Assembly (NCBI GenBank): GCA_000320545.1
Contig: ADNK01000906.1
Location: forward strand, 1 to 44,612
Length of the DNA stretch: 44,612 nucleotides
Reading direction: 5' to 3'
Origin: Bigelowiella natans CCMP2755
Lineage: Eukaryota; Protista; Cercozoa
Position 1 is the stretch's first letter. The number at the start of each line of letters is the position of its first letter. A model generated the notes under the pieces. The model ran no database searches, was not told the origin of the DNA, and saw only the letters and a program-made list of their open reading frames with translations. Below are positions 9,290-39,085 of this stretch, in pieces. Both the position numbers and the translations under genes were made by a program.

Positions 9290-10050
9290 CTGCTGGTAAC
9301 ACTGCAATATCGCAGCATCTAGCTAGGAGTACGTGCTGCCATAGCCGCTACTGCTGCTAGCTAGTCTGAATACATTATATTAGCGTACCTAGGTAACTAT
9401 TATTCTAGTGTTGTATGATAAGCTTCGACGCTATAATGCAGCACGCTCACCTGCTCGTAATAATCGCACCGCTTGCGCTTCAAATTTATATTTATTTTGT
9501 AATACATTTCAGCTACTATTGCGGCATGGGTGGTTGGGCGGGCTAGCGGGCTAGCTAGCTAGCGGGGCACATATGCATGCGCATATGCATGTGTGCATGT
9601 CGTCGTACGTAATGACATAGCCCATCTAGCAGCTGTGCACGCTCTATGCTCTACTCTAGTACTAGCGTTAGCAATGCATAATAGACATTGTGTATTGCAT
9701 GTCTATCATATGCTAGCTAGAATGCATGACTGACATACTAGCGCATGTAGCTCTAGAGCTAGCAGATAGATAGATCTAAGATGTAGCGCCATAGCTAGAT
9801 AGGTAGCGTGCAACGCCGGCGGCGTGTAATGTGCGCTGCGCTAAATAAGCGAGCATGCTGCTATGCTACACACACACATTTGAATGTAATGACCGACCCG
9901 ACTACATCGTCTCTACATGCTATGTAGACTTAGACACATCTAGACATGGATATTTTTTGTTGGCCTATCTAGCTATGTATCACGTAGCGCGCCCTCTAGC
10001 CCTACAACACAACTTCACATGTATGCATACTTAAGCGTAATGGACATGGA
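9290..10050. terminator. Convergent-gap domain A: CTAG/ATGCAT-rich palindromic sequence, candidate termination/boundary element
   Basis: Between the GARS stop (+) and the small membrane-protein stop (-). About 16 CTAG and only about 3 GAA/TTC in 9541-10020 by hand count. ATAGCTAGATAG at 9791 (+) and 9965-9976 (-). Function is inferred. Confidence 0.4.
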
Positions 10051-10243
10051 AATTGCTATACGTTTAACAGATTCCTTTGTCTATCACAAGCGTATTTAAT
10101 GGCATGTTCACGCTCGTTTAGTTTCCCATTTTGTTCTATTAAAATCTATACATCTTGACACATTTGGATGAGAATGTAGGAGATATTTCATTCTCAGCAG
10201 AGCATATTGTTTTTATGTCGAGCTGTCCATTCATAGTGGTCAT

Positions 10244-11480
10244 TCACTGAAGAAAATCTCTATCCTTTTTTTCATCGAATTCCCTGTCCCGCTGTGGCTT
10301 TTGTGTTGAGGGGTCCTCAATTTGGTTGTTGCTTCCCCTGAAAGAAGCAGCAGTTCGCAATCATTTGTTTCGAAACTAGCAGTAAAGAAGTGGTCTCAAA
10401 AAATGAATGACGGATGACATATTCACAGAAATCAGATCAAGAACGCTAATAATGCTGCGCAAGACGACATATGCATTCAGTCGCTCAATTCTTAATATCA
10501 TTTTGGAGTCTCAGGGGCTTACCGCATAGTCAGAAGCATTGTTATCATTAGTCCGATAAAGACGGTCGTGACAATCATGGTATTGCTCACTTCAACGTTG
10601 TTGTTCTGGGGTAGGCTGAAGGCTTCCGAGGCTGTGAATGTTCATACAAAGCAATAGTAGCGGTGATCCCTTGAGTAATCAATGATTTCTCAAAGATAAT
10701 GCGAAAAGTTTTGGAATTTTCAATCCTGAATGGGATGAGTTCAAAATTAATTCATAATACCGCTACTAAAACCACGATCTGTGAAAACGGTGTGCCCATT
10801 GTTCTGCAACGACCAAGCAATAAAGTCAGACTATTTTTGCTGAGTCATAGCACGAGGAGGAAATAATTTGGGACATGTTGCCATCTAATACCGATTCGAT
10901 CACTCCATTCACTTCTCTCATCTGCCTCTGAATGAAGGAGTACAGGCACTCGCATAGATCGTTGAAGGCCATTATTTAATTTGTAATTATAGACGAATCC
11001 GAATCCAATCTCTTTGTACTTGATTCCACTTTGTATTTACACCGTAGACTGCACCGCCTGCGATCAATCAGGGCCTAATGATGTGAAATTTGATTGATGG
11101 TAAGTCTCCCTCCTCTGTTATTAAACGAGATCTCCCAAATGAAAAATCGAGTGTAGTCTTGAGTCACGTGCAGGTCAAGTAAAGTATGTCGTATTTTTTG
11201 TGCACTCTTCGTGCACATCAACTGAATGCCATTATTACGCATGCATTGCATTTGAGAACACGTTGAACGAAGGTGTGATAGCTCAATAAGTGCCCTAAAG
11301 ATGCAAGGGGTGAGCCAGAGGTACCAGAGATGCTTCGAATTGTATTTTACGTGAGAATAACATCGAACTCACAGGAACAAGTATTCGTGGGAAAAAAGGG
11401 AAAAAAAGTATATGATGGTAAGTCGCAATAAGAAAACGTTATAGTATAGGCGACAGCTGTATCTATAATCGTCCTGAATA
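10244..11480 (-). CDS. Small hypothetical membrane protein, several exons (5' end uncertain)
   Basis: Phase-consistent exons ~11373-11473, 11168-11294, 11020-11074, 10892-10927, ~10761-10778, 10523-10631, 10244-10337 give ...ALIDRRRCSLRCKYKVESKADERSEWSDRIDRGFSSASEAFSLPQNNNVEVSNTMIVTTVFIGLMITMLLTMRGSNNQIEDP...DRDFLQ*. One clear hydrophobic helix; no recognised family. Confidence 0.5.
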
Positions 11481-12420
11481 CCTCTGAAACACAGACCCAA
11501 AGTGTGAAGCAATAAGACAGAGGAACGAGTGTTGTCCACACTATTAAAGCAAAACCCTTACAATAATTTACATTGCGACATAAAATAAATCGATAAAAAT
11601 GGGCTTAAAGGAGTCACATGGCAAAGTAAAAAATGCTTGATGATCTTCCTGCATTTGTTGTCGCAGAGCCAAAAGACATTGCGAAGTGTACCGAATTCCA
11701 GCCATTCCCTCGAATTCCCAGCCGGTTTCATGACTCATCAGCAAATTCAAAATCCGACGGATGTTGTCGTCTAGATTTCCTACAGGCAACGGCGACACAC
11801 TGCTGCTGCTCAGGCAAACGAAGAAACTCCTAAAAAAATCTCAATATATTCTCACAAAACTGCGCCAACTCCGACGAAAATCTCCGTTGACTTTGCCACT
11901 GTGCAAGATATTTCACTTTTCGGCTCAGATCGATTGTGGAAGAGCAGCCTCCTCTGTTTCGGGTCAAAAAAACACCAGAAAACATCGTAGAATCCAAGAG
12001 GTAGATAGTGCGGCTTGAGAGACTAGACCTAAGCCCAGGGGTAATGCTGTGTTGCGGAGCTTTTCCGTAGAGGGAAAGATGATTCGTTTGTCTTATTTTT
12101 TAATTTAAGTACGAATTTTCCAAGTCGTTCCGAGTAAATACCCTATATTTTGTTATCTTATAACGTTTTGTATAATTTGTCCCCCTTCCGAACCGCCCCC
12201 GCTACAATCCGAAGAGCTACTCGTAAACTTACCTCGGAACTTGGGTGAGTCCTAGACCCGGGGCATACGGACCTGGAATATATAGTAGAATAGGGGGAAA
12301 TACTTATTTTTTTTTTCGTTAAACTGGATGATATAGCCAACAAGGGCGTTGTAAATTCTTTGTCGGAAATCTGAACACATCGTTTTGATTGCAGCACTCA
12401 GAAGTGAACAATCATCCAAC

Positions 12421-13213
12421 ATGAGCGGCGAATTTAAAAACAATCCTGTCTGGGTGGGTTTGAGGCCTTTTGTCATCGGTGGATCTTCCGCCTGCGCTGC
12501 CACGTGCTGCATTCAGCCGCTCGATATGGTAGCTGCCTTTTTGTCCTCAGTTACTGGGTGTTTAGTGTATCTGTAGTGGTATTTGTACGCTACAAAAAAA
12601 AATACGTACATGTGTAATATGGGTAGCATCGATGATAGTGACGCTATTGGCTACCGCATATATGAAATGGGTCGCTTCGCACGTAGTTCTAGAGCTAGCA
12701 GGTTGAAATGATTTGGCTGTGTGTTGACGGAGGAATGCATTACTTACCGCAGAAATTACACACATCAGTAGTGCGTTGTTGACCGTAGTGATGATTCTCT
12801 TGACCGCCCTCATTGTTCCCCGTCGCCATGGCCATTATTATCCTTCCTTCCCCACACCCAAACGCTAGGTGAAAGTACGGATCCAGCTTCAAGGTGAAGG
12901 CTCTGGTGCGAAGATAAACGCAAATCCTTTCTCGGTTGCGAGCAAGATCATTGCTGAAGAAGGCGTAGGCGCGCTGTACAAAGGCCTTTCTGCTGGTATT
13001 CTTCGGCAACTGACGTACGGGATGAGCCGTCTGGGCATCTTCCAGGTGTGGAGTGATGTGTGGCAGTGAGTTTGGGCGGTATCGGATTTAACGATGAATT
13101 TGTTCACCTGCGATATGGCTTTGAATCATGATTAAATATTTAAGAAAATATTTCATGCTGGTGCTGTGTCATGGTGGTGATAACGTGCCACGATATACTA
13201 TTCTGACAACACG

Positions 13214-13251
<38 letters not shown>

Positions 13252-13762
13252 CGTTGTCGGAGAAGTTCAAACCAGAAGGAAAGACAGCGAATGAGCTGCC
13301 CTTCTTAACCAAACTGGGGTTGTTTAGTGCACACGTATACACACACCTGAGACTGGCACAGATATCTATATCTCAAAGCCCCGCTCGTATGCATCGAACA
13401 CATTTTCCGAAAATCACTATCATCACTATCACTATCATCATCATCATCATCATCATCATCTACTTCTCTTCTTTCTCTTTTTATTGTGTTGTCTGGTTGT
13501 TTCAGGTGCAGTATCTGTGCAGGAGGAACAGGGGCCCTCATCGGTACGTACGAACACCGCCGTTTTGGACGACTATTGTTCCGAAAACAACGATAGTTGC
13601 TATCGTCTATTATGCCCTGCTTTCGAGATCGGCATGTTCTTATTTCTCACCTCTACCATGGCTACCTGTAATAATAACAGGGACTCCGGCTGATGCTGCT
13701 CTTGTGCGTATGCAAGCCGATTCGACATTGCCGGTCCGCAGTAGTTGCAGCAGTTGTTATTT

Positions 13763-13794
<32 letters not shown>

Positions 13795-14105
13795 GCAGTC
13801 TCTATCATCCATATTCTATCCGAAGGGAAAGTTGTGTGTGTAAAGTAGTCAATATCGTTAGTCATACCTTTCTCTTGCTCTTCCTTTATATGAGAGATAT
13901 GTTATGCTGATCTGGCCATTTCTTTGGATTTCCTTCTTCTTCTTCTTCTTGTTCTTGTTCTTCCTGTTCAACGTACCCTCCCTCTCCCCCCCTGCCACCA
14001 ACACCACCAACACCACCAGGTGGATCAGCGACGTGGGTACAAGCATGGATTAGATGCTATGTACCGAATGGCAACGGAAGAAGGGGTCGGTAGTAGTTAG
14101 TAATT

Positions 14106-14141
<36 letters not shown>

Positions 14142-14451
14142 CAGCAGCAGCAGCAGCAATGGTATCAATAATTTATATGATGTGATGGAGATAAGGAGAA
14201 GGGGGGGGGGGGGAGGAGGACAACGATGCCCACCCAAACAAATCATAAACCGGCAACAAAGAACACCGTAGCAGCTAGTGAGATGTATATATGTGAATAC
14301 AGGAGGACGATCTAACGTGTACTACTCCTACTGTGCTAAAAATAATAAGAAAATATGTTATCATCACATCATAGATCTCGGGGTTCTTCAGCGGAGCAAC
14401 ACCCACCATTTTGAGAGGTGAGATAGATTGATAGGACAGCGGTATAACTCT

Positions 14452-14503
<52 letters not shown>

Positions 14504-15360
14504 TTCTCCCTCTCTCTTTCTTTCACAGTAGTACCCTCCTAGATATTCTTCGCATGCAAAACAAATCAGCATAGTCGTTATCATGCTGCTGTATTTTATA
14601 GCTTGGGTGCAAGATGTGCTTCTAGCGGATGGTAATTATTGTGTTCTTCTGTGCATTGCAACAACCGTAGGACTGGCCATCAACATCGGAATGCTGACAA
14701 CATATTCAAGCTACAAGAGCATGGTCAGTTTTGAAGGAGACCAACAAGATAACGATGCTTAAATATATATATCTAATATCGTTCTCTTTTTCTTCTTCTT
14801 CCTCTTCTTCTTGTATCTCATGCTAATATGTTTATTATTGGTGAAGATGGCACCATACCTTGGCTCTGATACGCAGTCCAATCGTTTTTTTTGCGGGGCT
14901 TTATCCGGGTAATAACATAAGCAGCCTAGCAACGTCAGCATGTGCCTCCTGCCTTAATATCCTTCATCATGGGGGGAGGGAAGAGCTTAGATGCCATAAT
15001 ATTTATGGTGGCACTAGAAGGAGAGAACAATGTTTTCCGTCAGGAACTCTACCCCCCTCCCCACTCCCGGTTTGTCTCCCTCTACTATATTACAACTTCT
15101 TTGTCTTCTGCTGCACTGCCGCCTCTTCTATTTGGGATGTGGTCATCATCGTACGTTGCATGCTCGAGCAATTCGCGTAGTTGTAGCAGTATTCTTGTCT
15201 GATGGCTGACGTGCGTGCTAATCATCATCATCATGGTGGTGGTGGTGGTGGTGGGGATTCAGGTGGACTGCAGCTACTGTGTCTCTACCATTTGACTTCG
15301 TCAAAACCCGACTCCAGAAGCAGGTATTAATATGTATCTGTTGTATGAATACACATATGG

Positions 15361-15403
<43 letters not shown>

Positions 15404-15404
15404 T

Positions 15405-15447
<43 letters not shown>

Positions 15448-15946
15448 TTGTGCCTACGTAGGCTGTGCATATTTTAAAGATATCTGCAATTTTCGAAGTT
15501 CACTGTTCTTCATTGTTGTTGTTAAAATTATCGTATAATTTTTTAGAGACCTGATGCTAGTGGAAAATACCCGTACGCTGGTGTCATGGACTGTATTGGA
15601 AAAACTATGGCTGCGGAAGGGCCCTCTGCTTTCTATAAAGGGTAGCTCTATTTAGGAGGGCAAAAGGCGGGGGGGGGGGCGGGGGGGAGATTGGAAATCT
15701 AAAATTACACTGTGGATTCATAAATATATCGATGCTTTCAAATGTTTACAATGCGACATTTTCATCCATTTTCTGTAAATATTCTGCATGCTGTATTCCT
15801 ACCTGCTACTGCTAACACATCGCTGTTTGAATGCTATGCGAACTAGATATGGGACGTACTGCATCCGAATCACTCCGCATATTATGCTCACGTGGGTATT
15901 TATGGACAACGTTAAGGCTATACTGAAGAAGAGAAATCTGATGTAA
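12421..15946 (+). CDS. DTC: Mitochondrial dicarboxylate/tricarboxylate (2-oxoglutarate/malate) carrier, SLC25 family, 12 exons
   Basis: Three carrier signature repeats after splicing: QPLDMVKVRIQ, TPADAALVRMQAD, LPFDFVKTRLQ. Also LYKGLSAGILRQLTYGMSRLG and FYKGYGTYCIRITPH. ATG 12421, TAA 15944-15946. Confidence 0.93.
13217..13250. repeat. (TA)n microsatellite running directly into the acceptor AG
   Basis: ...tatatatag|GCGTTG at a carrier exon boundary. Confidence 0.95.
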
Positions 15947-16049
15947 GGGTAGCATCATAGACATATCTCTGCGCTTCGACGTACCACTTGATTGCATGGT
16001 CCAAACACGGATATCAATATTATAAATCCGTTCGTATAATAGCCACGGT

Positions 16050-16505
16050 TGTAGGTAAATAATCTGTTCTTGCGAGCTTGTGTGCGCATGTCTAGATGTG
16101 CATCGCGCGCTGCCCAATGCATGAGCCCAGCTAGCAACGCAGAAAATATATATATCGATATTATATCGTGTGCGTGGTGGTGCATCATGCTAGCATGATG
16201 TCTACTAGATGTATCGTAGCACACTGAACCCTAGAGATAAGAGCTTCCGCTAGTCAGGCATAAAACAGCAACGGCAAGAGCAAGTAGGCATGCACTAATG
16301 CATTGTTACGCCATCCGCCAATCGCGCCTGGCCTACGTACATGCTTTGCTAGATAGCGATATAGCTAGATAGCGCACGAGCCAGATCGACGTTACCCAGC
16401 TAGCCAGTAGTCCACAACTAGATAAGCAGACGATGGGCGAAATGAACATGCCATTCTATTCATTAAAAAAACATTTTTTGCTGCAACTTACTAGCTGCAT
16501 TAGCA
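16050..16505. terminator. Convergent-gap domain B
   Basis: Between the carrier stop (+) and the kinase stop (-). About 11 CTAG in 16081-16500; ATAGCTAGATAG at 16361; CATGTCTAGATGTG at 16087; perfect 18-bp palindrome 16183-16200. Confidence 0.4.
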
Positions 16506-16591
16506 TAATTTGGGCATCAACCAACTTGGTTCTTATAGCTCAACCAGTAGTCGGTCTTTTTTGTCGAATAATTTCTGTCTTTCTTCGTTGA

Positions 16592-18338
16592 TCATACATT
16601 TTCTGCTGCAGCAGAAGAAAGAACAGCTTCGATATCAGCATTGCCCTCCCCAGCTTGTAATTTCGCAGAGGTCGTCACCACTCCCTCCTTTTCCTCCTCC
16701 CTTTTCTCAGTTTTGTTTGAGCTATTTCTACCATCACAGCCCCCACTATCATCACTACTATTTGGAGCAGCGTCACCACCCGCAACGTCAGTTATAGAAG
16801 GTAAAGCCTTCTCTGTTGATTGATTTACATCTTCTTCTTCTTCTTCTTTTCGGTTGTCTTCCTTGTTCTCCTGACGATGCGGCATCATCTCCACTCCCCG
16901 CTTTTCTTCAGTACAGTGTCCGTTGCTCCTGCTTCCTTTTGTATCACTGTGCTTTGCAGAGGTCGTGTTCGTATTCTGCTTGCCTTCCCCAGCAACCGTT
17001 ACTAATGTGCTCTCAGACATTTTCTCCTTCTGTGGATCTTCCTCCTCCTCCTCCTCCTCCTTTTGAGTCTTTTGAGGGTGGTTGTTCACAGCAGGAGTTC
17101 GTGTGATGGGCATCACCCTGTTAGGATCGCTGTCTTCTTTCTTGGGGGGAGGAGGGCGTTGGTTCTGTTGATAAGCAGTTTTAGCTTCTACTCCACCACC
17201 ATCACCACCACCACCACCACCACTTCCTTCTGCCATTACCGTTGCAGCAGTACCAGTACCAGTAGCAGCAGTACCAGCAGTAGTACCAGTAGAAGCAGCA
17301 GCAGCAGCAGTCCCAGTTCCTCCCACCGCCTCTTCTTCAGCAGTAGCAGGGGAAGGAGAAGAAGCAGCAGCGGTTGTTATTGTTGTTGTTGTTGTAATTG
17401 TTTTTGACTCCAGGGTTTCCTTCCCCTCGGAGACTTCATCATCACCATCATCATCATCATCGGCAGCAGCAGCAGCAGTAGAGGGCACTTGTTCATATTG
17501 TTCATTCCTGCTCTTCTCTTTTGATGCTCCTCCTCCATCGCTTTCACCTCCTCCTCCTTCTTCTCTCTCATCCCTCGCTCCCCTAGCGACTAAGGAGGAC
17601 GCAGTTTTACTCTGCAGGCGCTGCTGCCTCTGTTTGATGGAAATCATACTAGCACCCTGCCGATTGCCAGAGCGCCCTCCTTGGGGGCTTATACCTAGAA
17701 TGACTGCTGCTACTGGTCTCCCTCCTCCTCCTCCTCCTCCTCCTCCTCCTCCTCCTCCTGCGTCTTCGTTTTGATTTCCCATTGGAGCTCCATTGAGCTG
17801 TTCGTTTGTCATATCTTTCCATACCCGTGGCTGTGACCTTATTGAAGCTGTTGCCCCTACATCCTGTTGTTGTTGTTATTGTTGTTGTTTTTGCAAGCTT
17901 AGAGTGTGGTGGTGGTGGTGGTGGTGGTGGTGATGATAATGATAATGCCGCCGACATGCGTTTTACAGCTGTTCAGCACCAGCAGCTTGGAGTAGCAAAA
18001 AGAAGCCATTATTTTTGATCGAGTTGGTAAGAATGGTGCTTTCCCACTCCCCCCCCCCCTCTCTCGTCTTTCTTCTTCTTCTTCTTCTTCTTCTTCTTTC
18101 GAGTGAAAAGATACATCACCTTAGACTCATGGCGCCGGCTCATCAGTAACTACGATGTTCCCCAAAAAAAACAACAACAACAACAGCGTACATATGCAAC
18201 ACAAACAATAACTATCCCGGTAAAATATAAGGATTCTCGAGGCACCCGCCCCCCTCCTTTCCTGCGCGTCTACATCTCTCAGTCCCATCATCATAATCAC
18301 CCTCTGGGTATATTTAGGGAGGGAGGAAGAGAGGGAGA

Positions 18339-18387
<49 letters not shown>

Positions 18388-20181
18388 GAGGAGTTGTATC
18401 CCTCCAAACACATCATCCCACTTCTTCGTCTCTGTCATGACTCTCACCTCATCTTCGACATATCGGCACCAGAAACCATAATCTATGTGATAGGATACGA
18501 GATGATCATTTCAATGCGCGACGTGTTGATGAGGACCATAGAGAAACAGGCAACACAAAACGTTCCAAAATACAACTGATGGCGCAGCGACAGGGAGAGC
18601 AGGGGAAGTGATATATTCGCCAAGGCAGGATATGGGTTGCGCTAGCTTCTTTGGCTGCTGCTGCTGGATGATGCCGTGCACTGATGATAGGAAAGAAAAC
18701 GAAGAGCATTGATTGACTCTCCCCTCACCTTGGAAAGATGTGATATTTTATTTTGATTCCTCCTCCAATTGATGACATCGCGCTTGTCCTCGTCGCCTGC
18801 TGCTACATAAGTAAGTAAGTAAGTAAGTAAGTGAATGATCATACAGAGAATCAAACGTTATACCACCACCACCTCCATTAGAAGCAGCAAAGCATAGATA
18901 ACCTGCTGCGGCTCCTCTGGAATCCTTGAACTTACTCTCCACTGTCGTTTCTTTTTTTTCGTGGTCTCCCTCCCCCCCCCTCCCCTTCGCCAAAGGATGT
19001 TTTGCTGCAGGAACCGACCTAGATAGCGACGATGATGATGAAGAAGAGCACAATAACGGCGAAAGTCATACTGATCATCATCATCATCATCATCATCGCC
19101 AACGCTACTATGATCCATTCATTACGCAGGGTTTCCCGTCGAGTAGAAGGTGCCATCAGACAGCTTAAACGGTGGTTGGTTGTTAAATGAAATGCCTGCA
19201 GTAGTATGTGGTAGTAGTAGTAGTGGTAGTCACAGCGAGAAATGAAACACGATGAAACGACGGGTTCAAGATGATCGATGCGTTGTTGTTGTTGTTGTTG
19301 CCAAGTGTGCGGTATTACATTGAACATCACATGCAGTAGTATACGGCAAAAAATCCCTTTTCGTCGCTTTCCTCCACCATCATTCTGGCTATGTTTACTA
19401 CTGCTTCTACACTACTACACACCTTTAAGCTCATTAAAGATCTTTTGGGCCTCTTCTCTACTTATCCTCTCCCCTGCGTCCTGCAAAGAACAGCAGCAAT
19501 AACCAACACCGTCATCACCACGAGTGGGAGGCGTGTGATGGTGATAATAAACAAAAAGGGCTCTCATACCGTCCCGTAGTTAAGCGCGAACGTGTCCTCG
19601 AGATTATACCTATAATGATGATGATGATGATTTCCAAAGAAGCAGTATTGAGGGTATAAGTACACCAAGACCGATATCACAATCACACAGCTGCTTCTTC
19701 CGTATTGCAAGAAGAAGAAGAAGAAGAAGAAGAAGGCATAAATAGCAGTCTATTTTCGTTGTATTCAGGGTGCAATGTTATGAATGCTAAGCTGTATTAT
19801 GTTGTTGGCATTGTTAACGATGATAATGATGATGATGATGATGATGATGATGATGGGGCGGTGGCGGTTATGTGGAGTTATTGTTTCTCGTCACCTTATG
19901 TCGAAGTTGAATTCGTCTGAGATATTGAAAGGAGATTTGACCTTCCGATGAGCCAGCTCCTCCCACGAACACGGCAACTAAGGGTATTATTATTGTTGTT
20001 ATTATTATTATTATTACAACTATTATTATCATTATTAGTAGTATCATTATTGTTGTTATTATTATCATCGCATGGTTGATATCGTGCCAACAATAAAGCT
20101 CGCACCACCACACACAAATCAGCGATTATCAGCTGCCTGCTGCTCTTGCTCCCCTGCACCCAAAGTAACAAAAGAATGACG

Positions 20182-20212
<31 letters not shown>

Positions 20213-20520
20213 TTCTTCCATTGCATGCAAAGTAGTAGTGTCACATACGTCATCGAAGAAAGGATGTTTCTTCACATCGTCCCAGAAGTTTGTGTGGCCT
20301 AGACGGTCTCTCTCGTAGTAAGCACACAGCTTTGTAACAACGTCCTTTCCTTTCTTCGAGAGGCGGTTCACGCTGTCGGGTAGTGCAAACGCAGTCTTGA
20401 AGAAGTACCTGCGAACACCACGACACACTCGATGAGGGGTGACTATACAAACACGTGTTGTTTGCGAGGAGAGAACAAGACATTATGTACCGAGACGCCT
20501 CTCTTCCATACGCATATTGT

Positions 20521-20565
<45 letters not shown>

Positions 20566-26207: not shown

Positions 26208-26247
<40 letters not shown>

Positions 26248-27711: not shown

Positions 27712-27813
27712 CAATATGCACTAGAATAGAGTAAGATGTATTGAATAGTGCGTCGAATAATGAAAATTATAGGTTTGTAGTTTTTCTGTCGCTGCTTTCA
27801 TCACATTACTTGT

Positions 27814-27845
<32 letters not shown>

Positions 27846-27879: not shown

Positions 27880-28400
27880 TACATAATGCACGTGGACCGG
27901 GTCTGATTGTTGAACTGCATGGCGCTAACGTGGAAATTATTATTTGCCCTGCGGCTGACATGCACCAAAAAATATCGTGTCTCGGTGCTGGTACAAGTGT
28001 AGCTAGCAAGCGCCTTAAAATTGTACTTCATTATTAGTTTTTATAGCACCAAAATTGTGCGCCACGCTACGCTGTTTTATCCATTATAATCATTGACGAT
28101 AAGCATCGTCTATTTAGCTTGAGAATGGTGGCACGGCCTATCTAGCTATGCGTGCAATCAACACACACTTACTCTTATTCATATTGCTTAGACATCTAAA
28201 CATGGTAGTGCAATAGTGATGCCTCTCGCGTATGCATATACCCTCGGTACACGCGATGATGGAATAATCTAAATAATGTGTAATAGCTAGATAGCGTTTA
28301 ATTTACATAACGGTATGACAGCAATGCTATACTGAATGCATAACATAGTGTTTACGATGCATTCATCTCTAGGCATTGCAGCGAGAATCGGTAGCTGTAA
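27880..28400. terminator. Convergent-gap domain C
   Basis: Between the Tudor-protein stop (+) and the ABC1 kinase stop (-). GGCCTATCTAGCTATG at 28135-28150 is identical to 9962-9977; ATAGCTAGATAG at 28283; AGCTAGCAAG at 28001. Confidence 0.4.
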
Positions 28401-28401
28401 C

Positions 28402-29142
28402 TCAGTTCTTGATCTCATAAGAAATGTCAGAGCGAGCAGGTGCAGAAGACGTAGCCCCATGTTCCAATGACGATCTAGACGAATACAATTCAGAGCTGGC
28501 TGTAAGCGGCATGCCGCTACCCTTCCCCTTCCCGCAGTCGCGGGTTCTATCCGTAGGTAGTAGAGTGTCTGAATAACGAGCGCCCCATTTCTCAGCGAGG
28601 CTGTAGTCGTGGATGCCAAGAGTGAATGCCAGCCCCCGTATTATCTGGACGAAGTACACACACAGCAGAAACATAGTCAAAAATGACGACTAAACACCAA
28701 CTCCATGTTGTCGGTTAGCCGTGTGCGTGCTTGTCTAGTTGTGCCGGTGGTATTAGCATAAACTGAAGCCATTGCGACGTTAAATAACACAAACCTGTAC
28801 CGTCCTGAGGACGAGAAAAAGATTCTTTGGCAGGCTTTCCACAGCATTGTGGTGGAGGGTGCAATTAGGATTGAACAGATTCATCTCGTCGCCTTCATAC
28901 TGCACACATCCGAATCAACGTGTGTGACAAAATAAGCTCGCGATGATAACGATAATGATGATGATGATAATGATGATGATGATGATGCTGTGTTGTATGT
29001 GTTTAGCACAGTACACGGTATCATCACATACACCACCTTCTTCGTATCGAACATGGTCCGTGCAAGCACGATCACCGTGGCTGTATCCGAGGCATTCTCA
29101 ACCTAATATGTTATCAAACCACTGACTTCTTGTTGATCATAG

Positions 29143-29184
<42 letters not shown>

Positions 29185-30072
29185 CGGAGAACGTTCAGAA
29201 GAAGAGATAGAGGATGCACAAAATGAAGGGAGAGGCACACATCTCATCGTGTAAACATGCTGCCACTCTCACCCGTATTCCAAGGTTGTGGAAATCTGCT
29301 GCTATCTCCGCCCCCTCACCTATAACAACATTTGCATGTTGGCGTAACGCATAGAAACCACAATTTCCGGTTGCTTTCACTTGGAACGTCACGTATGTAG
29401 CTGCATGATGCAAATCATATGTACGGGGGGGGGAGGGTGCCCAGCCAAGCTTCGTAGTCACAAGAGAGCACCTACCTTTTGTGCGAGCGATGCTGACGAA
29501 AAGTCGCCCAAGTTTATGACGGAAGTCATCGTCAATCCTGCGTTTACATCAAATGTAGATGTTGATGGCGGATCGAACAGCGTGAACGACAGTAATACAA
29601 CACGTGTTACGTCTTACATAATGCTTTACCTTTTCACCTGCCCCCAGTCAATCACCCCAAGATCGAAGCTTCCGGGGGGGACAAACGGAACCCAGTTGAG
29701 AAATTGCAACCAACCGCTGTATTTCTGTATAGTTACCATTTCATCATCATCATCATCGTCGTCGTCGTCGTCGTCGTCATCAACACCCACCCTCACCATC
29801 ATCGGCATTGCTCACCACTGCTTAAGGTTCAGAAGGTCAAAGAGAGGACGTCACAACATAACGAAAAGCTAGTGATTGAGGAGACTATAATATCTAGCGA
29901 ATGTAAACAATCTACCATTGACAACACAATTGGACACCGCACATCAGCATCATGCATGCTATATTGGGGGAAAGTAATTAGTAGTACATTGGGTATGATG
30001 AGGATGTTTCCTGGGTGAGGGTCAGCATGGAAGAAACCATCTTCCATCACCATCATGCCCCACAACCTGCAC

Positions 30073-30116
<44 letters not shown>

Positions 30117-31137
30117 CATATTGTACGCGACGAGCAGCGGCAAGGGATGGGTGTATATACCAGCAGTAAGAACATAAATGAGCGATGAAATCGATTACTA
30201 CTCACACCCACAGATGAAAAAGAAGGAAATGGCAAGTCTTGAGCAGCAGCTACCAATTCAACCAAAATTCTCATCCCAACACAACGCCACCGCCTCCCCG
30301 CAGTCACCATCACGGCATTATTAATCAGCCCTCCACTGAGAAGAGCCCGACGATGCTTTGCCCCGAGCGTGGCGGTCGCTCAGTGCCCGGGCAAGGAATC
30401 GTCGGTGCAACTTCTGCGAGTTTCAATATGTTTTCTTCCAATGCAAGGGGCAGAGTTCTGATTCGTACTGGGCCATTCTGTCGACGATCTCCCTCCCAGC
30501 CCTTAGTCTTAGGGAATTGCTGCTGCTGCTGCTGCTGGTGGTGGTGGTGGTGATGGTGCTATAGATCTCATTGTCATCATCGTTGTTGGTCCTTGTACCA
30601 TCTGCTTCAACAGCGGATGGTGCTTTTTGCTGCTGCAATGGATCGTGAGATTCGAGGGTGGCTGGTGTGATATGATCAGGAGGACTAGAAGTGGAGGATG
30701 GAGAAGATGAGGAAGACGAAGAAGAAGAAGAAGAAGAAGAAGAAGAGGAGGAGGAGGAGGAGAGCCCTGGTGGTGATGATGATAATTGTTGGTAGCGAAG
30801 CTTCTTGTCCTCGTTATTGTTTTTGCTTGCAAGAGAACTGAGGGGCAGCCCTTCAAGCATCGTCATCGTCACCATTCGTTTGGTTACCATCCTGGTCGTG
30901 ATATAAGAAGAAGAGACGAGGGAGGAGGAGTGGAAGAAGAGGGAGAAGGAGAGGAGGAAGACGCAGAAAGAGGCATACAATAAGCGAAATTGCTATCAGG
31001 AGCGCCTCGAATTCTACCCTGAAATAGGAGTCGGTATTTGCACGTTTTTAGCCCTGCCGGACAGCCTTTCCGCAGCCTCACTCTGTCGGGGTGAACGAAT
31101 GGAAGGATGAGGCTCATCAAAGATATACACACGCATA

Positions 31138-31172
<35 letters not shown>

Positions 31173-32790
31173 TCATATGGAGGTGGATGCTCTTCGATGT
31201 TTACTGCTATTGCGCATGGACGACCATAGTTCTTGCCTCTTTGCGAAAGTCTAACTCCTCGAGAATCTGCTTCTGTGAGAGTAACAACAGATAATAGTTA
31301 GGAAGTCTTATTGTTTTAGCCATTGTATTCCTCTTCCTCCTCCTCCTCCTCCTCCTTCTTCTTCCATCCGATAATAACCATATCCCTTGTCTTTGTTATT
31401 CGCACACCTTCAGCTCCACCACTGCTGTAGACAAGTCAAATTTGACTTCGCCTGCAACGAGTTAAAGGGATGATAATCATTATTCGTTTTATAAAAAACA
31501 GCGGATGCAGACAAACACACTCACTCACTCACTCACACATATAGATCTGAGGGAGGGGGGCGAAGAGGTATCGATTTAATTGCACCTGTTTTGCTAAGGA
31601 AGGCCGAGATGATTTTAAGACATTCTGACGATATATACCCAGGTATTGATGAGAGAAGGATGAGGAAGAGGAGGGGGGAGGGGGGTGAAATGTAGAAGAT
31701 CGCAGAGAGAATCATAACGAGGACGTAACACAACTAAAGAAACTGAACTACTAGTAACTATCACTTCTCAATAAGAACACGCACGCACACACACACACAC
31801 ACGTGTTGTGTGTGTGTTAAGAGTTTTCCATAGATCTAGTACCTAAATCCAGCTGCATGAGCTCCTCCGCCTCCGGGTTCTAAAGGAGGATGGCGATTGA
31901 CGAGAATAAGTAGGTATTGAGGGGAAAGCAAATCCACTGTCGAGGAAGTATTATTCGCTTTATTTCAATTCGTGCGGAGCTGGTGTTTTAGGAAATGTTC
32001 ATGACTCCGTATATCATCAACCTGCAGCTTAATCGCCACAGGTGTGCCGTCGTGCAGCCGACCTGAGTGGACCTTTAGAATAGAATTTATTCCAGGAGGA
32101 GGGGGGGGTTCTATTTAGGAGCGAAAACTAGAGAAAACTTCCATCAGCATCATATCACCAATCTCTACCTGTGCAATAGAAGCAGATCCCAGCGGACGCT
32201 CAAAGTCGATATCGGTAAACACGTCCTGCCACGCCTTGTCCCCCCGTTGAATCAATCCAGAACTTGAAGCGGGCTTGCTGTCACCCTGGAAGCAAAGGCC
32301 CAGCTCTCGATTCAGAAGACTCCTGAGAAGTAAGTAAATCGTTACCTCGAAGAAATGAGTACAAAGTCTTTCAGTGTACGGCAAACTAGGCATGCTGTTC
32401 TCTCGTCAGAGCATTGAACGAGGGAATCCATCGCTACTATTGGAGATATGGATAATTCTCTTCATAGTAGAGATACTAGCGGCGTGTATAGAGAATCAAT
32501 TGCAACGTTTACTGCTCATCATTCAGAAATCTCTCTTCCTCCTACTCGATATCCTTTGCTGTGATAGCGGGAACATCGTCGCACAGCACGCCAAGCTTCC
32601 TGCAGTAGATCTGAGGCATAAAGTCCTACACACACACACGCGCGCGCGCGCGCGCGCAGCAGCCAAATTCCGATTAGCACAGCATCCGAACAGTGGTTAA
32701 TCGATACGATATGGCGCCAGTCGCTGTTGTATACTACATTACAGAGACCAAAGTACTCACCTTCCTTGTCGAGAGGAACTGGCCTGCCTA

Positions 32791-32837
<47 letters not shown>

Positions 32838-33107
32838 GCACGTACGCTCAGTCACTAGGATGATAAACATGAAGAGGTTAAGGCAAGCAAGAGGAAGAAA
32901 GAACGAGGGTACGAGGAGCAAAGAATTGCGTATTTCGTCATCGCATCGAATGGCCAGAACAAGCGGGCACTACTTTACCTTCACAAAGAACCCACGCATG
33001 TCGAGGCATAAGCTCAGCATCCCTGTAATGATGATGATGATGATGATGCTGATGATGATATTGATGATAGTGATAAAAGACGGTGAACTACGATGTTGTA
33101 TTTGTGT

Positions 33108-33151
<44 letters not shown>

Positions 33152-34114
33152 AGAGACATATGTAACACAATCTATGGCTGGCACGACAAGAAGGGTATGT
33201 CTACGGTGTGGCAGCAGCAGCCGCCGCCATACGATCGGAATTGAGGTCATGTAGTTTGCCCATGAGCTCCTTCCTCTTTGTGAGGTCCCCTTTGCACTTG
33301 AGGGATACCGCTATCTACTCAAGGAAGATGATCATGATGATGAGTTATAACTGTTAGTTGGTTTCGGTTGGCAATAATGATGACGATGGTGGCTACTCTC
33401 TCTCTCTCTGCGCGCTTTATATTTTGCCAGAGTCTACTGCCTTCCCTTCTCTTTCTCTAAATCGTGTGTCCTCATCAACGATGTTTCCGCCCTCTCCCCG
33501 CACAACCACGTACATGCACACACACGCACTACTCACCGTATTAGCCTTATAGCTGCAGTAGATGGTAGCTGCTCGCCGAAAGACCTCCCCCACGCGTTTC
33601 GCTTTACTAAACTCGCGTCCTTTCATATGAGAAGACAGGGGAGGAGGAGCTAAGAATAAACAATTCCTACTGGCGTTCATGATAACGATTCGAATTTGTG
33701 AAATGTTGTTTTCCGAAGAGCAAAGCTTTATCTCTCTCTCTCTCACTCTTTCTCTCTCTCCGCCCCCCCCCCCAAATAGATGGAAAAGTATAACAATTCG
33801 TAGGGTTGCTTCCGATACGCCACACATACGTCGAGCGGATTTCATCTCCCACCCGCCGTTCTTTTCATACCTCATAGCTTTATTTTTTTAATGTGGTATG
33901 GTGTTACTATGCTACCACCTGCAGTGTCTTTCCAATTGCGAAGATGTTGCTGTATTGGGTGCTGGTGAGAAGGGCTGTTGGGAGGACTCGAGCTCATCGT
34001 CGTCGAAGAAGCGAGACGTTGAGCGGCGATCGCTGCAGGAGATGCTGTGGTGACGGCCGACTCTAAAGTCGCAGCATGAGCTGCTCTCCCCGATATCATC
34101 CTTGCAAGATTCAT
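28402..34114 (-). CDS. ABC1/UbiB (ADCK) atypical protein kinase, many exons
   Basis: Spliced motifs: LDMRGFFVKAGQFLSTRKDFMP, LCDDVP, FERPLGSASIAQVHSGRLHDGTPVAIKLQ, EELDFRKEA, DGFFHADPHPGNILI, VIDWGQVK, LVLRTVQIIRGL. Ala/Ser-rich N-terminal extension from ATG 34114. Confidence 0.92.
32793..32836. repeat. (CA)n(CG)n alternating purine-pyrimidine tract
   Basis: cacacaca...cgcgcgcgcgcgcgca in an ABC1 kinase intron; similar tracts at ~32628-32658 and ~43366-43393. Confidence 0.9.
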
Positions 34115-34541
34115 GAATGGTGTGTCGCCCTAAAACACGAAGCGGGAGGAAAGAAAGTCGTTGTTATTACATCATTACGTCATATCCATATTTCTGTATA
34201 TTCATACGCATGCGGTGCTTCAGGTCTTTCTTTATAAAAGATGAGTAAGAGGGTCTGTGAAGGGTGACATTCGCTCAAGAGGTTCGGACGTGTTCGACGA
34301 TGACATTACATATCTAACAAAACCATTACATCTGCTACTTACCTCGAGGGGAAGATCGGTGCTGCTCACACCTGGCTGCAGCCACTGTATAGTAGCAAAA
34401 GATACCCCCGCATTCCCCAAAAATGCAACACAACACGTCAGCTATGCCCAGCTTCGCCACCAAAAGCGACACGAGTTGAAGGAAAGAGATTTGCTCTGAG
34501 ACGTAAACTCACATCGATGTGTGACACTCACCGTGAGCATA

Positions 34542-35862
34542 ATGCAGATGAAAAGGCAGGTTGCGGCCATCGCTCTCGACGCCATCCGAACCGGTGAGCC
34601 CTCTCGCGGCTCCGCCTCTCCTCAGCGTTTCGTTCCACCCCCTGCTGTCAGCATTGTAGTGTCATCGTCAGGGCAGATGATCTCTCTCTTTCTCTTATGC
34701 TTTTATTGCTAGTGCTCCCTTAAAGCTGCTGGTCCGACCCTGCGATTTTCGCCTGCGACAAGGGGAAAATCCATTCCGACGAAGAAATGCCCGAAGACAC
34801 GCCAGGGTGTGCAGATTCGGATTGGGGCAATAACAACAATAATACCAGGGATTGCCCTCTCTTAGTTGACATTGCCGGAGCTCCCAGTGACTTGCAGAAA
34901 AAACACTGCGTTTACGGAACTGCGACAAGGAAAAGAGTTGGATATTTTTGATTTTTTAGGATTTTTCGGGTCGATTTGTTGGGATCTACAGTGCTCTACG
35001 TCGCTGTGGAGTCTCAAGCTCCAAGCTACACTCCTTCCGGCCCCCCCCGCCAAGAGGATGTGGACACGCGTCGTGACCGCCTTGGTCGCCCAGAACAGGG
35101 TATTTATTTATCAGATGCGCCCCCACCCCCCAAAGGGGACATAGTCCTTCTTCGTCTCGCTTCCCATATATTCTTCGCCTTCCTCAGTCCGTCTCCGCGC
35201 AATCTTTCTGGCGCAACGCGCCCTTGTTTTTCAGTACGGCTCGATTCTGGGGTTCTTCCTGCTTTCCAGCATCTGCTTTATAAATCGGTTAGTTGATTGC
35301 ATCCCCCCTCCAGACATTTCTACCATTATTATGATAAATCTCTCCCCCTCCACCCGCTGTTTCGCTTCAGGATCTTAATGACAGTAGAGGGCTGGATATT
35401 TCCTGGCATTGCCAAGATTTCCCTGGATGATAATGTAATAATGCTGACACAGCAAATCCGTACTTTTAGTTCCAGCTTGAGAAGACCGTAAATTACGATG
35501 AATGAATGGGAAAAGAAGAAGATGTTCTTTCTAATTCGTCAGGTTGTATTCGTGATAGGACACCAGAGAAGTGGGACAACTAGTGTAAGCAGCTCCTCAA
35601 TATCATCACCGTCATCCTTGTCACCATAGCCGCTGTTACATAATTCATGGTCGGGTTTCATTGTCGCTTATAAGGCATTGTTCCACAGATACAAACAGCT
35701 CTCTCCGAGGGGGACAACGTCATTGAAAGCACAAACTTCGATTGTATCTGTCCTTCATTGATACTCAAAGTAAGTGCTGTCGGAATGCAGAAATAACAAA
35801 AAGTGTCATAAATATGATGATGATAATGAAGATTGTAGTACTGTGCAAGAGAACAATCTCTC

Positions 35863-35933
<71 letters not shown>

Positions 35934-35961
35934 AATGAAATTCTATTTTATGTATAATATT

Positions 35962-36009
<48 letters not shown>

Positions 36010-37047
36010 AATGTCATCGACCAGGTTTTGTTGGCGCCTTCAGCTATCATAATCAATTTCATCGTGATGAAGTTGTTCGACACGCCTAACCACAGGTAGA
36101 GAAGAGCTCAGTGGGAGAAATAGAGTTGAAAGAAAATAGTAGTAATAATATTGGCAGGAGACCTTTCTCATATTATCATCATCATTATCATCATCGTCAT
36201 CGTCATCGTCATCGTCATCATCATATTCCTCCACAGGGTAGGATTGAACGAGCCGTTGGAAGAGCATTTATGGCTACTGCACCATGTATTATGAACAGCC
36301 TATAGAGATCAAAGTCAGCAGATCGCTGAGAATCTTACGCTCTGTGGTGATTGTATGTGGTAGTTTTTCGGGGAGGCCTTGCCTTCCGTTATGTTTCCCT
36401 CGCTTTCCCAGGATGAAAAGATTCTTGAGGCGGTACCTTCAATAATACTACTACTACTACCACTACCACTACTACTTACTACTGCTGCTGCTGCTACCCA
36501 TCCACAGTCGCAACAACTACATAGAATCATCTAAGTTTTTTAGAGTGGCTAGGTTGGATGGGGAGTAACGTCATTTGGGTGTTGTTGTTTAAGTGCGGGA
36601 TGGTTGGTGCGTCGTCATGTGTCGTTCGTGATTTGTTGCTGCTCCTTCCTTTTCCTCTTGCAAGAGCATCGCAGTGGAAGACTGGCATTTCGATTTTGTT
36701 AAAGACTGCATGAGGAGAGTCATTTACTTCAAGCAAATGAAGGAGATGATGATGAGGATGTACGTGACGTCGTTCAGACTAGGAGAGAAGGATGGGCGGG
36801 GGCGGGGGGCGGGGGAGGGGGAGGTTGATCACTTTTGAACATAGTTATTCATTTATCACTTTTTACAATGCTCACTATGAACCTAGCCATTATTCTCCCT
36901 CGCCCCCTCCTTCAGGGTCGCTCAATCCCCCAGGCGTGAGAAGACGAAGATGGTATATGTTGGAAAACCGCTGCTGTTCACTTTGCATATGGATGCGCTT
37001 CGGAGAAATTTTCCAAAGGCGAAGCTGGTAGGTGCATTACCCTCCGC

Positions 37048-37099
<52 letters not shown>

Positions 37100-38679
37100 A
37101 TCCTTTGTTGTCGTTCCTCTCCCTCTGCATTGATTGATGCTGCTGGCGATGCTACGACAGGTCTTATGCATCCGCAACCCGTCATCGACTCTTCCGTCCT
37201 ACATCGACTTCATCAGTGCGATAACCTCGGTCCCCCCAGACGACAAAGTGTTCCGTGACAGATTCATGTCGCTTTTCAAGTATTAAGATATAAGTGGGGG
37301 GAGATACGAGAGAAAAAAAAACCAATGCTGTGGCTGTGAAAGAAGGAGAGTTGCGTGTATACGCCAAGAAGAGGAGGAGGAGGAAAGTTGTGATAGTAAT
37401 AGTACTTGCCTCACGTAAATGATTACCGTGGTGCTTTCGTCGGCGCTAAATAACCACAAACACCACCTTCAGGGTTTATAGTGTGCCGTTGCTACGTCGT
37501 TTGGCTATGGAGGTTACAGCAGCATCAGCAGCATCTGGTAGAGTGTTGTTTATGTGTCTTCTTATACCATTTGCTTCGGTTGATAGCTTCAGCGCAAAGG
37601 GGAGAGAAGGGGGATAATATATTTGCGTGTGCATTTTTTTAACTCTCGTCATCTTCCCCGCCCCCCCACTTTTGTCTTCATTCATGTGCAGGCAAGCAAA
37701 GCAGTGATGCCAGTGGCAAGATGCTCCTGCGGTTTTCCGAATGGAAAAAAGAGCCGCATAAAGCGGTATAATTCCCGTTACACTAAACACTAAAATCATA
37801 TGTTGTTAAGGCGGAGCTCCTACATCATCACATGATTTGATATTTCTATATGTTTTTGTGTGTAGATGAAGCGTATGTGTGACTGGACGGGGATTGTGGA
37901 GGGGAAAACAGCAAAGACTGTGGCCGGCACATTGCCAGACGATAAGAAAGCGTCGTCTTTGTCTTCGTCGCAGGTAGAAGGGAAGGAGACAGAACAGCAT
38001 CTCCTTGAGCCCTCCACACAATCAAACAGCTTACACCGATTCCTACGTTTTCCTTTTTTCCCTTACTTATGCTACGTTTGCCCCTGCTACTATTTCACGA
38101 ATTAAGAGAATACATATTCCCTTAGAATGAGAAATAGTGTTTTCCTTACCTGCTAAATTTGAGCCACGCTTGGCTTCGATGAACCGCCTCTGATTCGCAA
38201 TTTCCTGCGACACGACTCGCGCGTCCTTAAAGTCACGTTGCAAAACTAATAAAAATCGGCGTTGTTGAGAATATGAAGGAATCGTAAGCGAATTAATCCG
38301 GTCAATTTGGCGGAAATCTTATCTTAGGACCTGCGATTTAAGAAGAAGGAAAAGCACAAAAACAGGAAAGCGAGTTTCGAGCTTATCCCCGAGAACAAAA
38401 TGCAGGAATATCTTGGTATTGAAGATAGCATATTAACATTCTATATCAATTTATTTCTTTTTGATTTGTCCAAGAATATTGACTTTCCTCGACGAAGGGT
38501 ACAGTGTAAAGTAGAAGGATTTCGATCGAAAATGATTGAACAATATTGTGTGATTATAGTATTTTTTGCCCATGATGCGCTCAGTAGTATTGTGTTCTAA
38601 ATCTGCTGCTGATGTTCTTTCAGGGAAGGCGTTTGACATCTTACAAAAGTACGATGAAGACGGAACAGTTCCACAATAA
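34542..38679 (+). CDS. PAPS-dependent sulfotransferase (Sulfotransfer_3 / Stf3-like); 5' exons uncertain
   Basis: 5'-PSB motif after splicing: EGWIFPGIAKISLDDNVVFVIGHQRSGTTSIQTALS. Later exons HRVGLNEPLEEH and YVGKPLLFTLHMDALRRNFPKAKL. Terminal exon GKAFDILQKYDEDGTVPQ* ends at 38679. Confidence 0.8.
35965..36007. repeat. (AG)n microsatellite
   Basis: Pure AG run in a sulfotransferase intron. Confidence 0.95.
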
Positions 38680-38699
38680 GTGGTGTCGGTGTCACACAT

Positions 38700-39085
38700 C
38701 ATGCCACACATGCTGTTCGAGGTTGCATGTAGGCTTACTAAGCAACTAACCGTCGTGCTACATTAATATATCCATGCCTCACCAATGGCGTGCACAGCAC
38801 TGCTCACTATCTAGATCATCATAAAGGCTATAAATTGCGCACATCTTAATAAATTTGGACGCAACAGCAGATGGCACATTGAATACTAGCCGGTGAAATT
38901 ATGTGTGAGTAGCAGTGATAGAGCCATAGCATGTCATAACATGCGTTATAGCGTCCCAGCTGCTCTGCATGCTTGCACGCGCGCGACATTCGCACCTTGC
39001 TCGCAGCGACCCGTGCGCCAAGCTAGCAAGGCATCAACGTATGTGTGAGAGTGCATGTTGGACTCCGACGTACGAACATCTCGCG
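38700..39085. terminator. Convergent-gap domain D
   Basis: Between the sulfotransferase stop (+) and the SIM-protein stop (-). CTATCTAG core at 38807, AGCTAGCAAG at 39021, many GCATG/TGCA/GCGC words. Confidence 0.33.

What the first reader, a model, noticed from the sequence alone, without database searches (positions are those of the whole stretch)
9290..39085. All four convergent gaps are a distinct compositional domain (CTAG/CATG/TGCA-rich, GAA/TTC- and GGA/TCC-poor, nearly microsatellite-free)
Seen: gaps 9290-10050, 16050-16505, 27880-28400 and 38700-39085 switch abruptly to self-complementary words (ctagctag, gcatgc, atgcat, gcgc), strongest in A and B. Hand count for 9541-10020: about 16 CTAG (about 2 expected) and about 3 GAA/TTC (about 15 expected). 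By contrast, 1441-1560 in a divergent gap has about 7 GAA/TTC in 120 nt. Inference: a strand-symmetric chromatin or DNA-modification domain marking where polymerases collide (conceptually like base J at trypanosomatid convergent strand-switch regions). Alternatives are selection against purine-rich GAA elements so that elongation stops, or a local mutational signature.
Basis: partly seen in the sequence, partly recalled or inferred. Interest (0 to 1): 0.75.

Follow-up and report, generated by a model that had tools for sequence, protein, structure and literature searches.

The report
CTAG-rich spacers between convergent algal genes
In the alga Bigelowiella natans, the short stretches between genes that face each other end to end switch to a distinct pattern of self-complementary four-letter words (CTAG, CATG, TGCA) with almost no purine runs, likely a two-way stop zone for the enzyme that transcribes the genes.

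Summary
Real, and more structured than reported. The window is B. natans nuclear DNA. The hand counts are exact, and each gap, held out, outscores at its median all 1589 outside windows. RNA places domain A between two mRNA 3' ends; D is half 3' UTR, half spacer. CTAG is strong only in A and B. All four gaps share the loss of purine/pyrimidine runs (0-7 per kb against 23-36) and GC/TA/CA enrichment. New here: a 4-base phase at lags 4-16 in A, B and D, and a 12-mer, ATAGCTAGATAG, five times in three gaps and nowhere else. The DNA is single-copy, with no Rfam match, no hairpin excess and no footprint of the known TpA mutator. 'Microsatellite-free' also holds for divergent gaps. Best reading (0.45, inferred): a selected, strand-symmetric RNA polymerase II termination zone. 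Main rival (0.25): a scar of topoisomerase II breaks and slippage. No modification could be tested. Limits: four gaps in one window, no tandem-gap control, no second genome. The scan had not noted this on other DNA.

The parts
2266..9316 (+). Glycyl-tRNA synthetase gene, left flank of A; stop near 9128, mRNA end about 9305-9316
   Evidence: Exon 2728-2835 matches PDB glycine-tRNA ligases, E 7.5e-8; GT-AG joints and contig ends at 9305 and 9316; start read from sequence
9317..10116 (.). Spacer A between the two mRNA ends; the domain runs about 9290-10040; strongest case
   Evidence: No RNA in 9442-10069 in 3 of 3 RNA runs; CTAG 22/1.4; profile
9529..9566 (+). G-rich block with four GGG tracts overlapping a (GCTA)5.5 / (GCGGGCTA)3.6 array
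   Evidence: the only G3-quadruplex-type match in the four gaps
9567..9600 (.). 34-nt perfect purine-pyrimidine alternation, the longest in the window once microsatellites are masked
9791..9802 (+). 12-mer ATAGCTAGATAG, copy 1
9965..9976 (-). 12-mer, copy 2; inverted pair with copy 1 (14-nt arms, 160 nt apart)
10117..11337 (-). Spliced gene of unknown function (4 exons, 109-codon frame), right flank of A; poly(A) site at 10117
   Evidence: T-tail loose end in 11 reads at 10117, three CT-AC joints, minus-strand first mates; frame
12184..15946 (+). Mitochondrial carrier gene (oxoglutarate-carrier-like), left flank of B
   Evidence: RNA joints; PF00153; homologues and tblastn to 15943
16050..16505 (.). 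Domain B; mRNA ends not mapped, predicted near 16070-16090 and 16430 from AATAR words
   Evidence: CTAG 11/0.9; AATAR positions; ends are inference
16361..16372 (+). 12-mer, copy 3, preceded by a second CTAGATAG at 16349
16592..22311 (-). Protein kinase gene, right flank of B
   Evidence: Exons 95-100% identical to the jgi Bigna1 model P0001; PF00069; the long last exon is read from the frame 16592-17875
27880..28400 (.). Domain C; weakest, no clear 4-base phase; its right part may be 3' UTR
   Evidence: first AATAR of the right gene lies at 28179; no RNA laid
28138..28149 (-). 12-mer, copy 4
28283..28294 (+). 12-mer, copy 5; inverted pair with copy 4 but facing the other way than the pair in A
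28403..34550 (-). ABC1/UbiB-like kinase gene, right flank of C (5' limit approximate)
   Evidence: PF03109, E 0.004, below the curated cut-off; frames
38680..38875 (+). 3' UTR of the left gene of D; carries the run depletion and CATG/TGCA but little CTAG
   Evidence: Spliced contig ends at 38875; composition
38876..39055 (.). True spacer of D between the two mRNA ends
   Evidence: Contig ends 38875 and 39056; no RNA in 38940-39031 in 3 of 3 runs
39056..39561 (-). Last exon and short 3' UTR of the right gene of D (unknown function)
   Evidence: Minus-strand first mates, contig 39056-39561; no Pfam hit

Best explanation
These are single-copy stretches at and beyond the poly(A) ends of convergent gene pairs, built from degenerate self-complementary four-base words (CTAG, CATG, TGCA, ATAG/CTAT) with purine and pyrimidine runs nearly absent, and they likely work as a two-way termination zone for RNA polymerase II that selection keeps. 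Inferred steps: after cleavage at its poly(A) site each polymerase runs into the spacer; many weak CTAG-centred sites, with CTAGATAG / ATAGCTAGATAG as the best version, would be read at the DNA level (a bound protein or a modified base) alike from both sides, slow the polymerase and let the exonuclease 'torpedo' release it before it enters the facing gene. Slippage and short duplications would supply the raw 4-base units.
For: Shown: in A the score rises at the GlyRS mRNA end (9290-9340) and falls about 80-110 nt before the facing poly(A) site; in D it falls at the right gene's mRNA end. Absent from 4 of 4 divergent gaps and from the 13 verified introns pooled. No strand skew, no hairpin excess over dinucleotide shuffles (mean z -0.46 to +0.33) and no change in RNA:DNA hybrid energy, which points to a DNA-level rather than an RNA-level signal. 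One exact 12-mer stands 5 times in 3 non-homologous gaps and 0 times in the other 42 kb; 1 of 200 order-4 simulations reached five copies; CTAGATAG stands 7 times in 4 of 4 gaps and once outside. The copies are isolated words, not parts of GATA arrays (lag-4 identity 0.32-0.45). B, C and D keep the composition without an excess of recent exact duplications. R/Y runs of 6 or more fall to 0-6.6 per kb, below the roughly 16 per kb of random sequence (the 16 is my arithmetic).
Against: No binding protein, modified base, nascent-RNA profile or cross-species conservation was seen. The 12-mer is missing in D, has no fixed distance or orientation to the mRNA ends, and is a common variant inside GATA/GCTA microsatellites of other organisms (80 of 121 metagenome loci were 4-base arrays). 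4 of 7 flanking 3' UTRs share the run depletion and the UTR half of D scores like the domain. A domain-like patch lies in the carrier gene's second intron, which the polymerase must pass. Only four gaps, and no tandem gap to compare.
Confidence: 0.45

Rival explanations
1. Mutational scar of head-on transcription: topoisomerase II cuts with a 4-base stagger where positive supercoils gather; fill-in and end-joining duplicate the four bases, slippage extends them, and the tolerant spacer turns into a decayed 4-base mosaic with no function of its own.
For: Excess identity at lags 4, 8, 12, 16 (z 5.1, 4.7, 3.1, 2.7 against order-2; 8-16 persist against order-4) and none at 10-11. Gap A has 11 exact 4-base duplications against 2.1 expected and 5 five-base ones against 0.5; it is the longest spacer and its genes are the more expressed pair in the one shared run (depth 28 and 45 against 6 and 10). 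Top2 yields 2-4-bp duplications, also with the wild-type enzyme overexpressed (10.1101/2020.05.03.075358, passages); AGCT is the commonest one in TOP2A-K743N tumours (PMC8795545, passages).
Against: B, C, D together have 1 exact 4-base duplication against 3.8 expected; pooled duplications do not exceed Markov models fitted to the gaps (12 against 9.6-17.6). The phase seen is CTAGCTAG (5 sites) rather than AGCTAGCT (1 site) and the TOP2A flank motif is not enriched. In unperturbed yeast Top2 activity is higher at divergent than at convergent intergenic regions (PMC11621772, passages). It does not by itself explain the run depletion or one repeated 12-mer.
Confidence: 0.25
2. A neutral substitution equilibrium of unconstrained DNA at gene ends (context-dependent mutation or repair that differs outside the mature transcript), common to the downstream side of any gene.
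For: Strand symmetry; a gradient from UTR to spacer; TT, TC and CC steps are all low while CT is not.
Against: Transitions cannot remove R/Y runs; substitutions do not make a 4-base phase out to 16 nt or five exact 12-mers; base composition is unchanged; the last introns before the gaps lack it.
Confidence: 0.13
3. One reading: a domain defined by a modified base or special chromatin, the palindromic words being its target sites.
For: Short palindromes suit symmetric modification; position as for base J at convergent strand switches (PMC4150806, abstract); unreviewed earlier notes say CTAG is spared by the TpA mutator in this genome.
Against: T-N12-A pairs 316 against 311 expected, one G-quadruplex-type motif in four gaps, no 10-11-bp period; no paper on a DNA modification in Bigelowiella turned up in searches. 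It overlaps with the best explanation, where a modification is one possible reader.
Confidence: 0.12
4. Old transposon remains, or the footprint of the known TpA hypermutation.
For: Three other contigs share 18-22-nt words with A; the TpA mutator makes CA and TG, hence CATG and TGCA (10.64898/2026.01.13.699255).
Against: DNA depth flat over D at 85% likeness; hits in A are short and not collinear; no alignment over 24 nt between gaps. TpA is enriched (rho 1.07-1.63, against 0.43 or less in mutated windows of the preprint) and mutable D-TA-H sites are not depleted (202 against 191.5); TA-to-CA/TG cannot create CTAG, which is five times above random.
Confidence: 0.05

Closest known systems
Base J at convergent strand-switch regions of Leishmania and Trypanosoma (PMC4150806, PMC4344527; abstracts seen)
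   Same: A DNA-level feature where opposing RNA polymerase II units end; proposed role in termination.
   Different: Here single genes, not polycistronic units; only a sequence signature is seen, no modified base; T-N12-A spacing and G-quadruplex motifs are not enriched.
Composition dip at convergent domain boundaries of the dinoflagellate Symbiodinium microadriaticum (PMC8110479; passages seen)
   Same: Base composition changes only at convergent, not divergent, sites.
   Different: There GC falls by 6-10% over about 10 kb between gene blocks; here GC is unchanged (0.41-0.49 against 0.45) and the change is in word order over 0.2-0.8 kb.
Short inverted repeats at yeast poly(A) signals (PMC6420913; passages seen)
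   Same: Self-complementary sequence at gene 3' ends.
   Different: Yeast repeats are AT-rich, lie in the 3' UTR and exclude nucleosomes; here the core lies beyond the poly(A) site, is GC-balanced and shows no hairpin excess.
Top2-initiated de novo duplications (yeast top2-FY,RG; human ID17 / ID_TOP2alpha; passages seen)
   Same: 4-base unit; AGCT/CTAG word cycle; link to transcription stress.
   Different: Described for trapped or overexpressed enzyme and as scattered events, not as a standing genomic domain; the phase here is CTAG and recent duplications are in excess only in gap A.
TpA hypermutation of integrated viruses in B. natans (10.64898/2026.01.13.699255; parts 1-3 of 5 and passages seen, supplements closed)
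   Same: Same species; CATG and TGCA are expected products.
   Different: That process depletes TpA; these gaps are TpA-rich.

Membership tests
Base J-type termination domain | Lies where opposing polymerase II units end | tested here: met
   A, D by RNA; B, C by homology and reading
Base J-type termination domain | Glucosylated hydroxymethyluracil present in the DNA | not testable with these tools
   Needs native long-read kinetics or mass spectrometry
Base J-type termination domain | T-N12-A pairs near G-quadruplex-forming sequence | tested here: not met
   316 against 311 expected; one G3 motif, in A only
Base J-type termination domain | JBP1/JBP2 hydroxylases and J glucosyltransferase encoded | not tested
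   No genome held
Top2/NHEJ 4-bp duplication signature | 4-base periodicity without other periods | tested here: met
   Lags 4, 8, 12, 16 in pooled gaps; A, B, D but not C
Top2/NHEJ 4-bp duplication signature | Excess of exact de novo 4-bp tandem duplications | tested here: inconclusive
   A 11 against 2.1; B, C, D 1 against 3.8
Top2/NHEJ 4-bp duplication signature | Top2 cleavage at these sites | not testable with these tools
   Needs CC-seq or END-seq
B. natans TpA hypermutation footprint | TpA depleted with CpA/TpG raised | tested here: not met
   rho TpA 1.07-1.63; D-TA-H 202 against 191.5
Transposon or MITE remnant | Multi-copy collinear homology, terminal repeats | tested here: not met
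   only two gaps were laid on DNA runs and a filter drops some contigs, so very old elements are not excluded
Structured non-coding RNA or hairpin terminator | Rfam match, folding beyond shuffles, stable transcript | tested here: not met
   0 Rfam matches; z about 0; no RNA in the spacers
Nucleosome-positioning sequence | 10-11-bp period of TA or WW steps | tested here: not met

The most novel reading that the evidence does not exclude
B. natans marks each convergent gene end with a CTAG-grid element that a dedicated DNA-binding factor or base modification reads as a two-way terminator: an independent, non-kinetoplastid counterpart of base J, whose CTAG sites may be the same ones that the host's TpA mutator leaves untouched.
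Probability: 0.18. Interest if true: 0.85.

Novelty: new variant of a known kind. Interest (0 to 1): 0.56.

Why it matters
Where and how RNA polymerase II stops between closely facing genes is known in few lineages, and I found nothing on it for Rhizaria. If the signature holds genome-wide, termination zones in B. natans can be found from sequence alone and tested with chromatin data that already exist (ATAC-seq, KAS-seq, Hi-C in PMC8887012). If it is a scar instead, it would be a natural, genome-scale record of topoisomerase II mutagenesis at head-on transcription sites. Either way it gives a practical marker of gene 3' ends in a genome whose models lack UTRs.

Tried and rejected
No whole genome is held, so no genome-wide test. 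Metagenome scan with a gapped 12-mer pattern (11 of 64 parts scanned, 121 loci kept): 0 of 121 met four domain criteria, 80 were 4-base arrays of other organisms. Viral scans: 40 chance matches to a 14-mer, all with negative flank scores; no kinase relative. Rfam: none. Hairpins, hybrid stability, skew, helical period, T-N12-A, UGUA and TAYRTA words: no excess. Long Z-DNA-type alternations are not confined to the gaps (5 of 29). A UV-damage reading (TT, TC, CC low, CT spared) was set aside because C-to-T changes would raise TT. Paper searches for this feature found no description; the library lacks most subscription papers, including the B. natans genome paper, and the mutation preprint's indel tables could not be seen although they bear on the Top2 rival. 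Earlier-finding look-ups returned nothing.
Full report
Source. The window is intron- and microsatellite-rich eukaryotic DNA of 45% GC. Exons of the kinase at 18450-22311 match the jgi Bigna1 model P0001 at 95-100% in the intron-free pieces, and its nearest relatives are from Lotharella and Norrisiella, so this is nuclear DNA of the chlorarachniophyte Bigelowiella natans. No whole genome is held.

Observation. Pooled over the four gaps against the microsatellite-masked rest, base composition is unchanged but CTAG is 80 against 7.9 (both strands), GCTA/TAGC 78 against 10.4, CATG 60 against 16, TGCA 64 against 21, GGA/TCC 16 against 67, GAA/TTC 30 against 91. All four gaps have GC steps at 1.8-2.1 times expectation and CC, GA and AA steps at 0.5-0.84. 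CTAG itself is strong in A and B and modest in C and D. With each gap held out, its median 200-nt window outscored all 1589 outside windows, though the weakest windows of C and D did not, and the background was fitted on the outside sequence. An untrained score put 32 of its 32 best microsatellite-free windows in A-D. Runs of six or more purines or pyrimidines are 0-6.6 per kb in the gaps and 23-36 per kb in four divergent gaps and three gene bodies. Lack of microsatellites is shared with the divergent gaps.

Position. For A, the GlyRS mRNA ends at about 9305-9316, a spliced minus-strand gene ends in a poly(A) tail at 10117 (11 reads), and 9442-10069 has no RNA in 3 of 3 runs (about 6 in 100 of the raw run was read). 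For D, the left mRNA runs to 38875 and the right one to 39056, so the stated interval is about half UTR; the true spacer is 180 nt. These are steady-state RNAs and cannot show nascent read-through. The score rises at the GlyRS end and falls 80-110 nt before the facing end; in D it covers the left UTR and stops at the right mRNA end. Four of seven flanking UTRs (three limits mapped, the rest estimated) share the run depletion, mostly without the CTAG excess. Thirteen RNA-verified introns pooled show background values. The genes alternate in direction, so no tandem gap is available as a control.

Grammar. Neighbouring bases are rarely the same (0.13-0.20 against 0.24-0.31) and bases 4, 8, 12 and 16 apart agree more often than an order-2 model predicts (z 5.1, 4.7, 3.1, 2.7; lags 8-16 persist against order 4). 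This holds in A, B and D, not in C; one divergent gap also reaches z 2.7 at lag 4 but not at lag 8. It remains after the strongest patches are cut out. There is no 10-11-bp period. The 12-mer ATAGCTAGATAG stands five times in A, B and C and nowhere else; 0 of 200 order-3 and 1 of 200 order-4 simulations reached that. Its core CTAGATAG is in all four gaps (7 copies) and once outside. In A and C two copies form inverted pairs, but facing opposite ways. Exact short duplications are in excess only in A. There is no hairpin excess, skew or change in hybrid energy, and no Rfam match.

What it is not. DNA depth is flat over D at 85% likeness; in A three other contigs share only 18-22-nt words out of order; the gaps share no alignment over 24 nt: not a recognisable transposon. 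The TpA mutator described in this species (10.64898/2026.01.13.699255; parts 1-3 of 5 read, supplements closed) depletes TpA, whereas the gaps are TpA-rich and keep the mutable contexts. Three unreviewed earlier notes report that this mutator spares CTAG; I used that as a lead and did not test it.

Mechanism. I favour a selected two-way termination zone read at the DNA level (0.45): borders tied to mRNA ends, symmetry, a repeated isolated word, and a composition kept in three gaps without recent duplications. The torpedo model and road-block termination are recalled general knowledge, and every step from sequence to polymerase release is inferred. Against it: no reader is identified, the word has no fixed geometry and arises easily in GATA/GCTA arrays (80 of 121 metagenome loci), UTRs and one intron share part of the signature. 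The main rival is a scar of topoisomerase II breaks and slippage (0.25): Top2 cuts with a 4-base stagger and yields 4-bp duplications, but yeast Top2 is more active at divergent than at convergent gaps in unperturbed cells and only gap A shows fresh duplications. A neutral substitution equilibrium (0.13), a modification-defined domain in the strict sense (0.12) and transposon or mutator debris (0.05) follow.

Comparison. It works like, but is not shown to be, a base J termination region (abstracts): position is met, the sequence features are not, the base is untestable here. Symbiodinium has a GC dip specific to convergent sites (passages); yeast has AT-rich inverted repeats at poly(A) signals (passages). 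Published ATAC-seq in B. natans finds almost no open chromatin away from promoters (sections 5 and 6 read), so these spacers are probably not open sites. Searches found no description of this signature; passages of PMC12730881 and PMC6461891 did not mention it. The library is incomplete.

Verdict. A real, well-bounded and apparently undescribed sequence class at convergent gene ends, shown in four gaps of one window with two mapped by RNA; function inferred. New variant of a known kind; interest 0.56.

Noticed in passing
window 1-44612: The genes read here alternate strictly in direction (- + - + - + - + - +), leaving no tandem gap. Seven of ten orientations rest on RNA or clear homology, one on a weak Pfam hit, two on reading alone; small genes may be missed.
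   Followed up: partly
window 12529-12868: Intron 2 of the carrier gene holds the best domain-like patch outside the gaps (12501-12700) and shares 22 of 24 nt with 9742-9765 in gap A; possibly an early-termination or antisense stop site, or chance.
   Followed up: partly
window 9275, 10140, 38848, 39093: An AATA(A/G) word stands about 25-45 nt upstream of all four RNA-mapped 3' ends: a candidate poly(A) signal for this alga.
   Followed up: partly
window 10117-11337 (-): Well-expressed spliced gene with a 5' leader of about 370 nt that holds a 59-codon upstream frame, and a main frame of only 109 codons with a hydrophobic stretch; no family search was run on it.
   Followed up: no
window 27813-27842: A (TA)n microsatellite sits just left of domain C, probably inside the spacer, an exception to 'microsatellite-free'.
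   Followed up: no
window 39095-39561 (-): Last exon of the right gene of D encodes an acidic stretch with a SUMO-interacting-like motif (label recalled, no call) followed by an Arg/His/Ser-rich tail; no Pfam hit.
   Followed up: no
window 41600-44612 (+): Phosphoglycerate kinase gene (PF00162) whose first exon reads like a signal peptide for plastid targeting (recalled pattern, not tested).
   Followed up: no
L042-L161 (contigs named Ga0126342): One metagenome holds many contigs with compound (GATA)n/(GCTA)n arrays, likely from an unrelated eukaryote.
   Followed up: no
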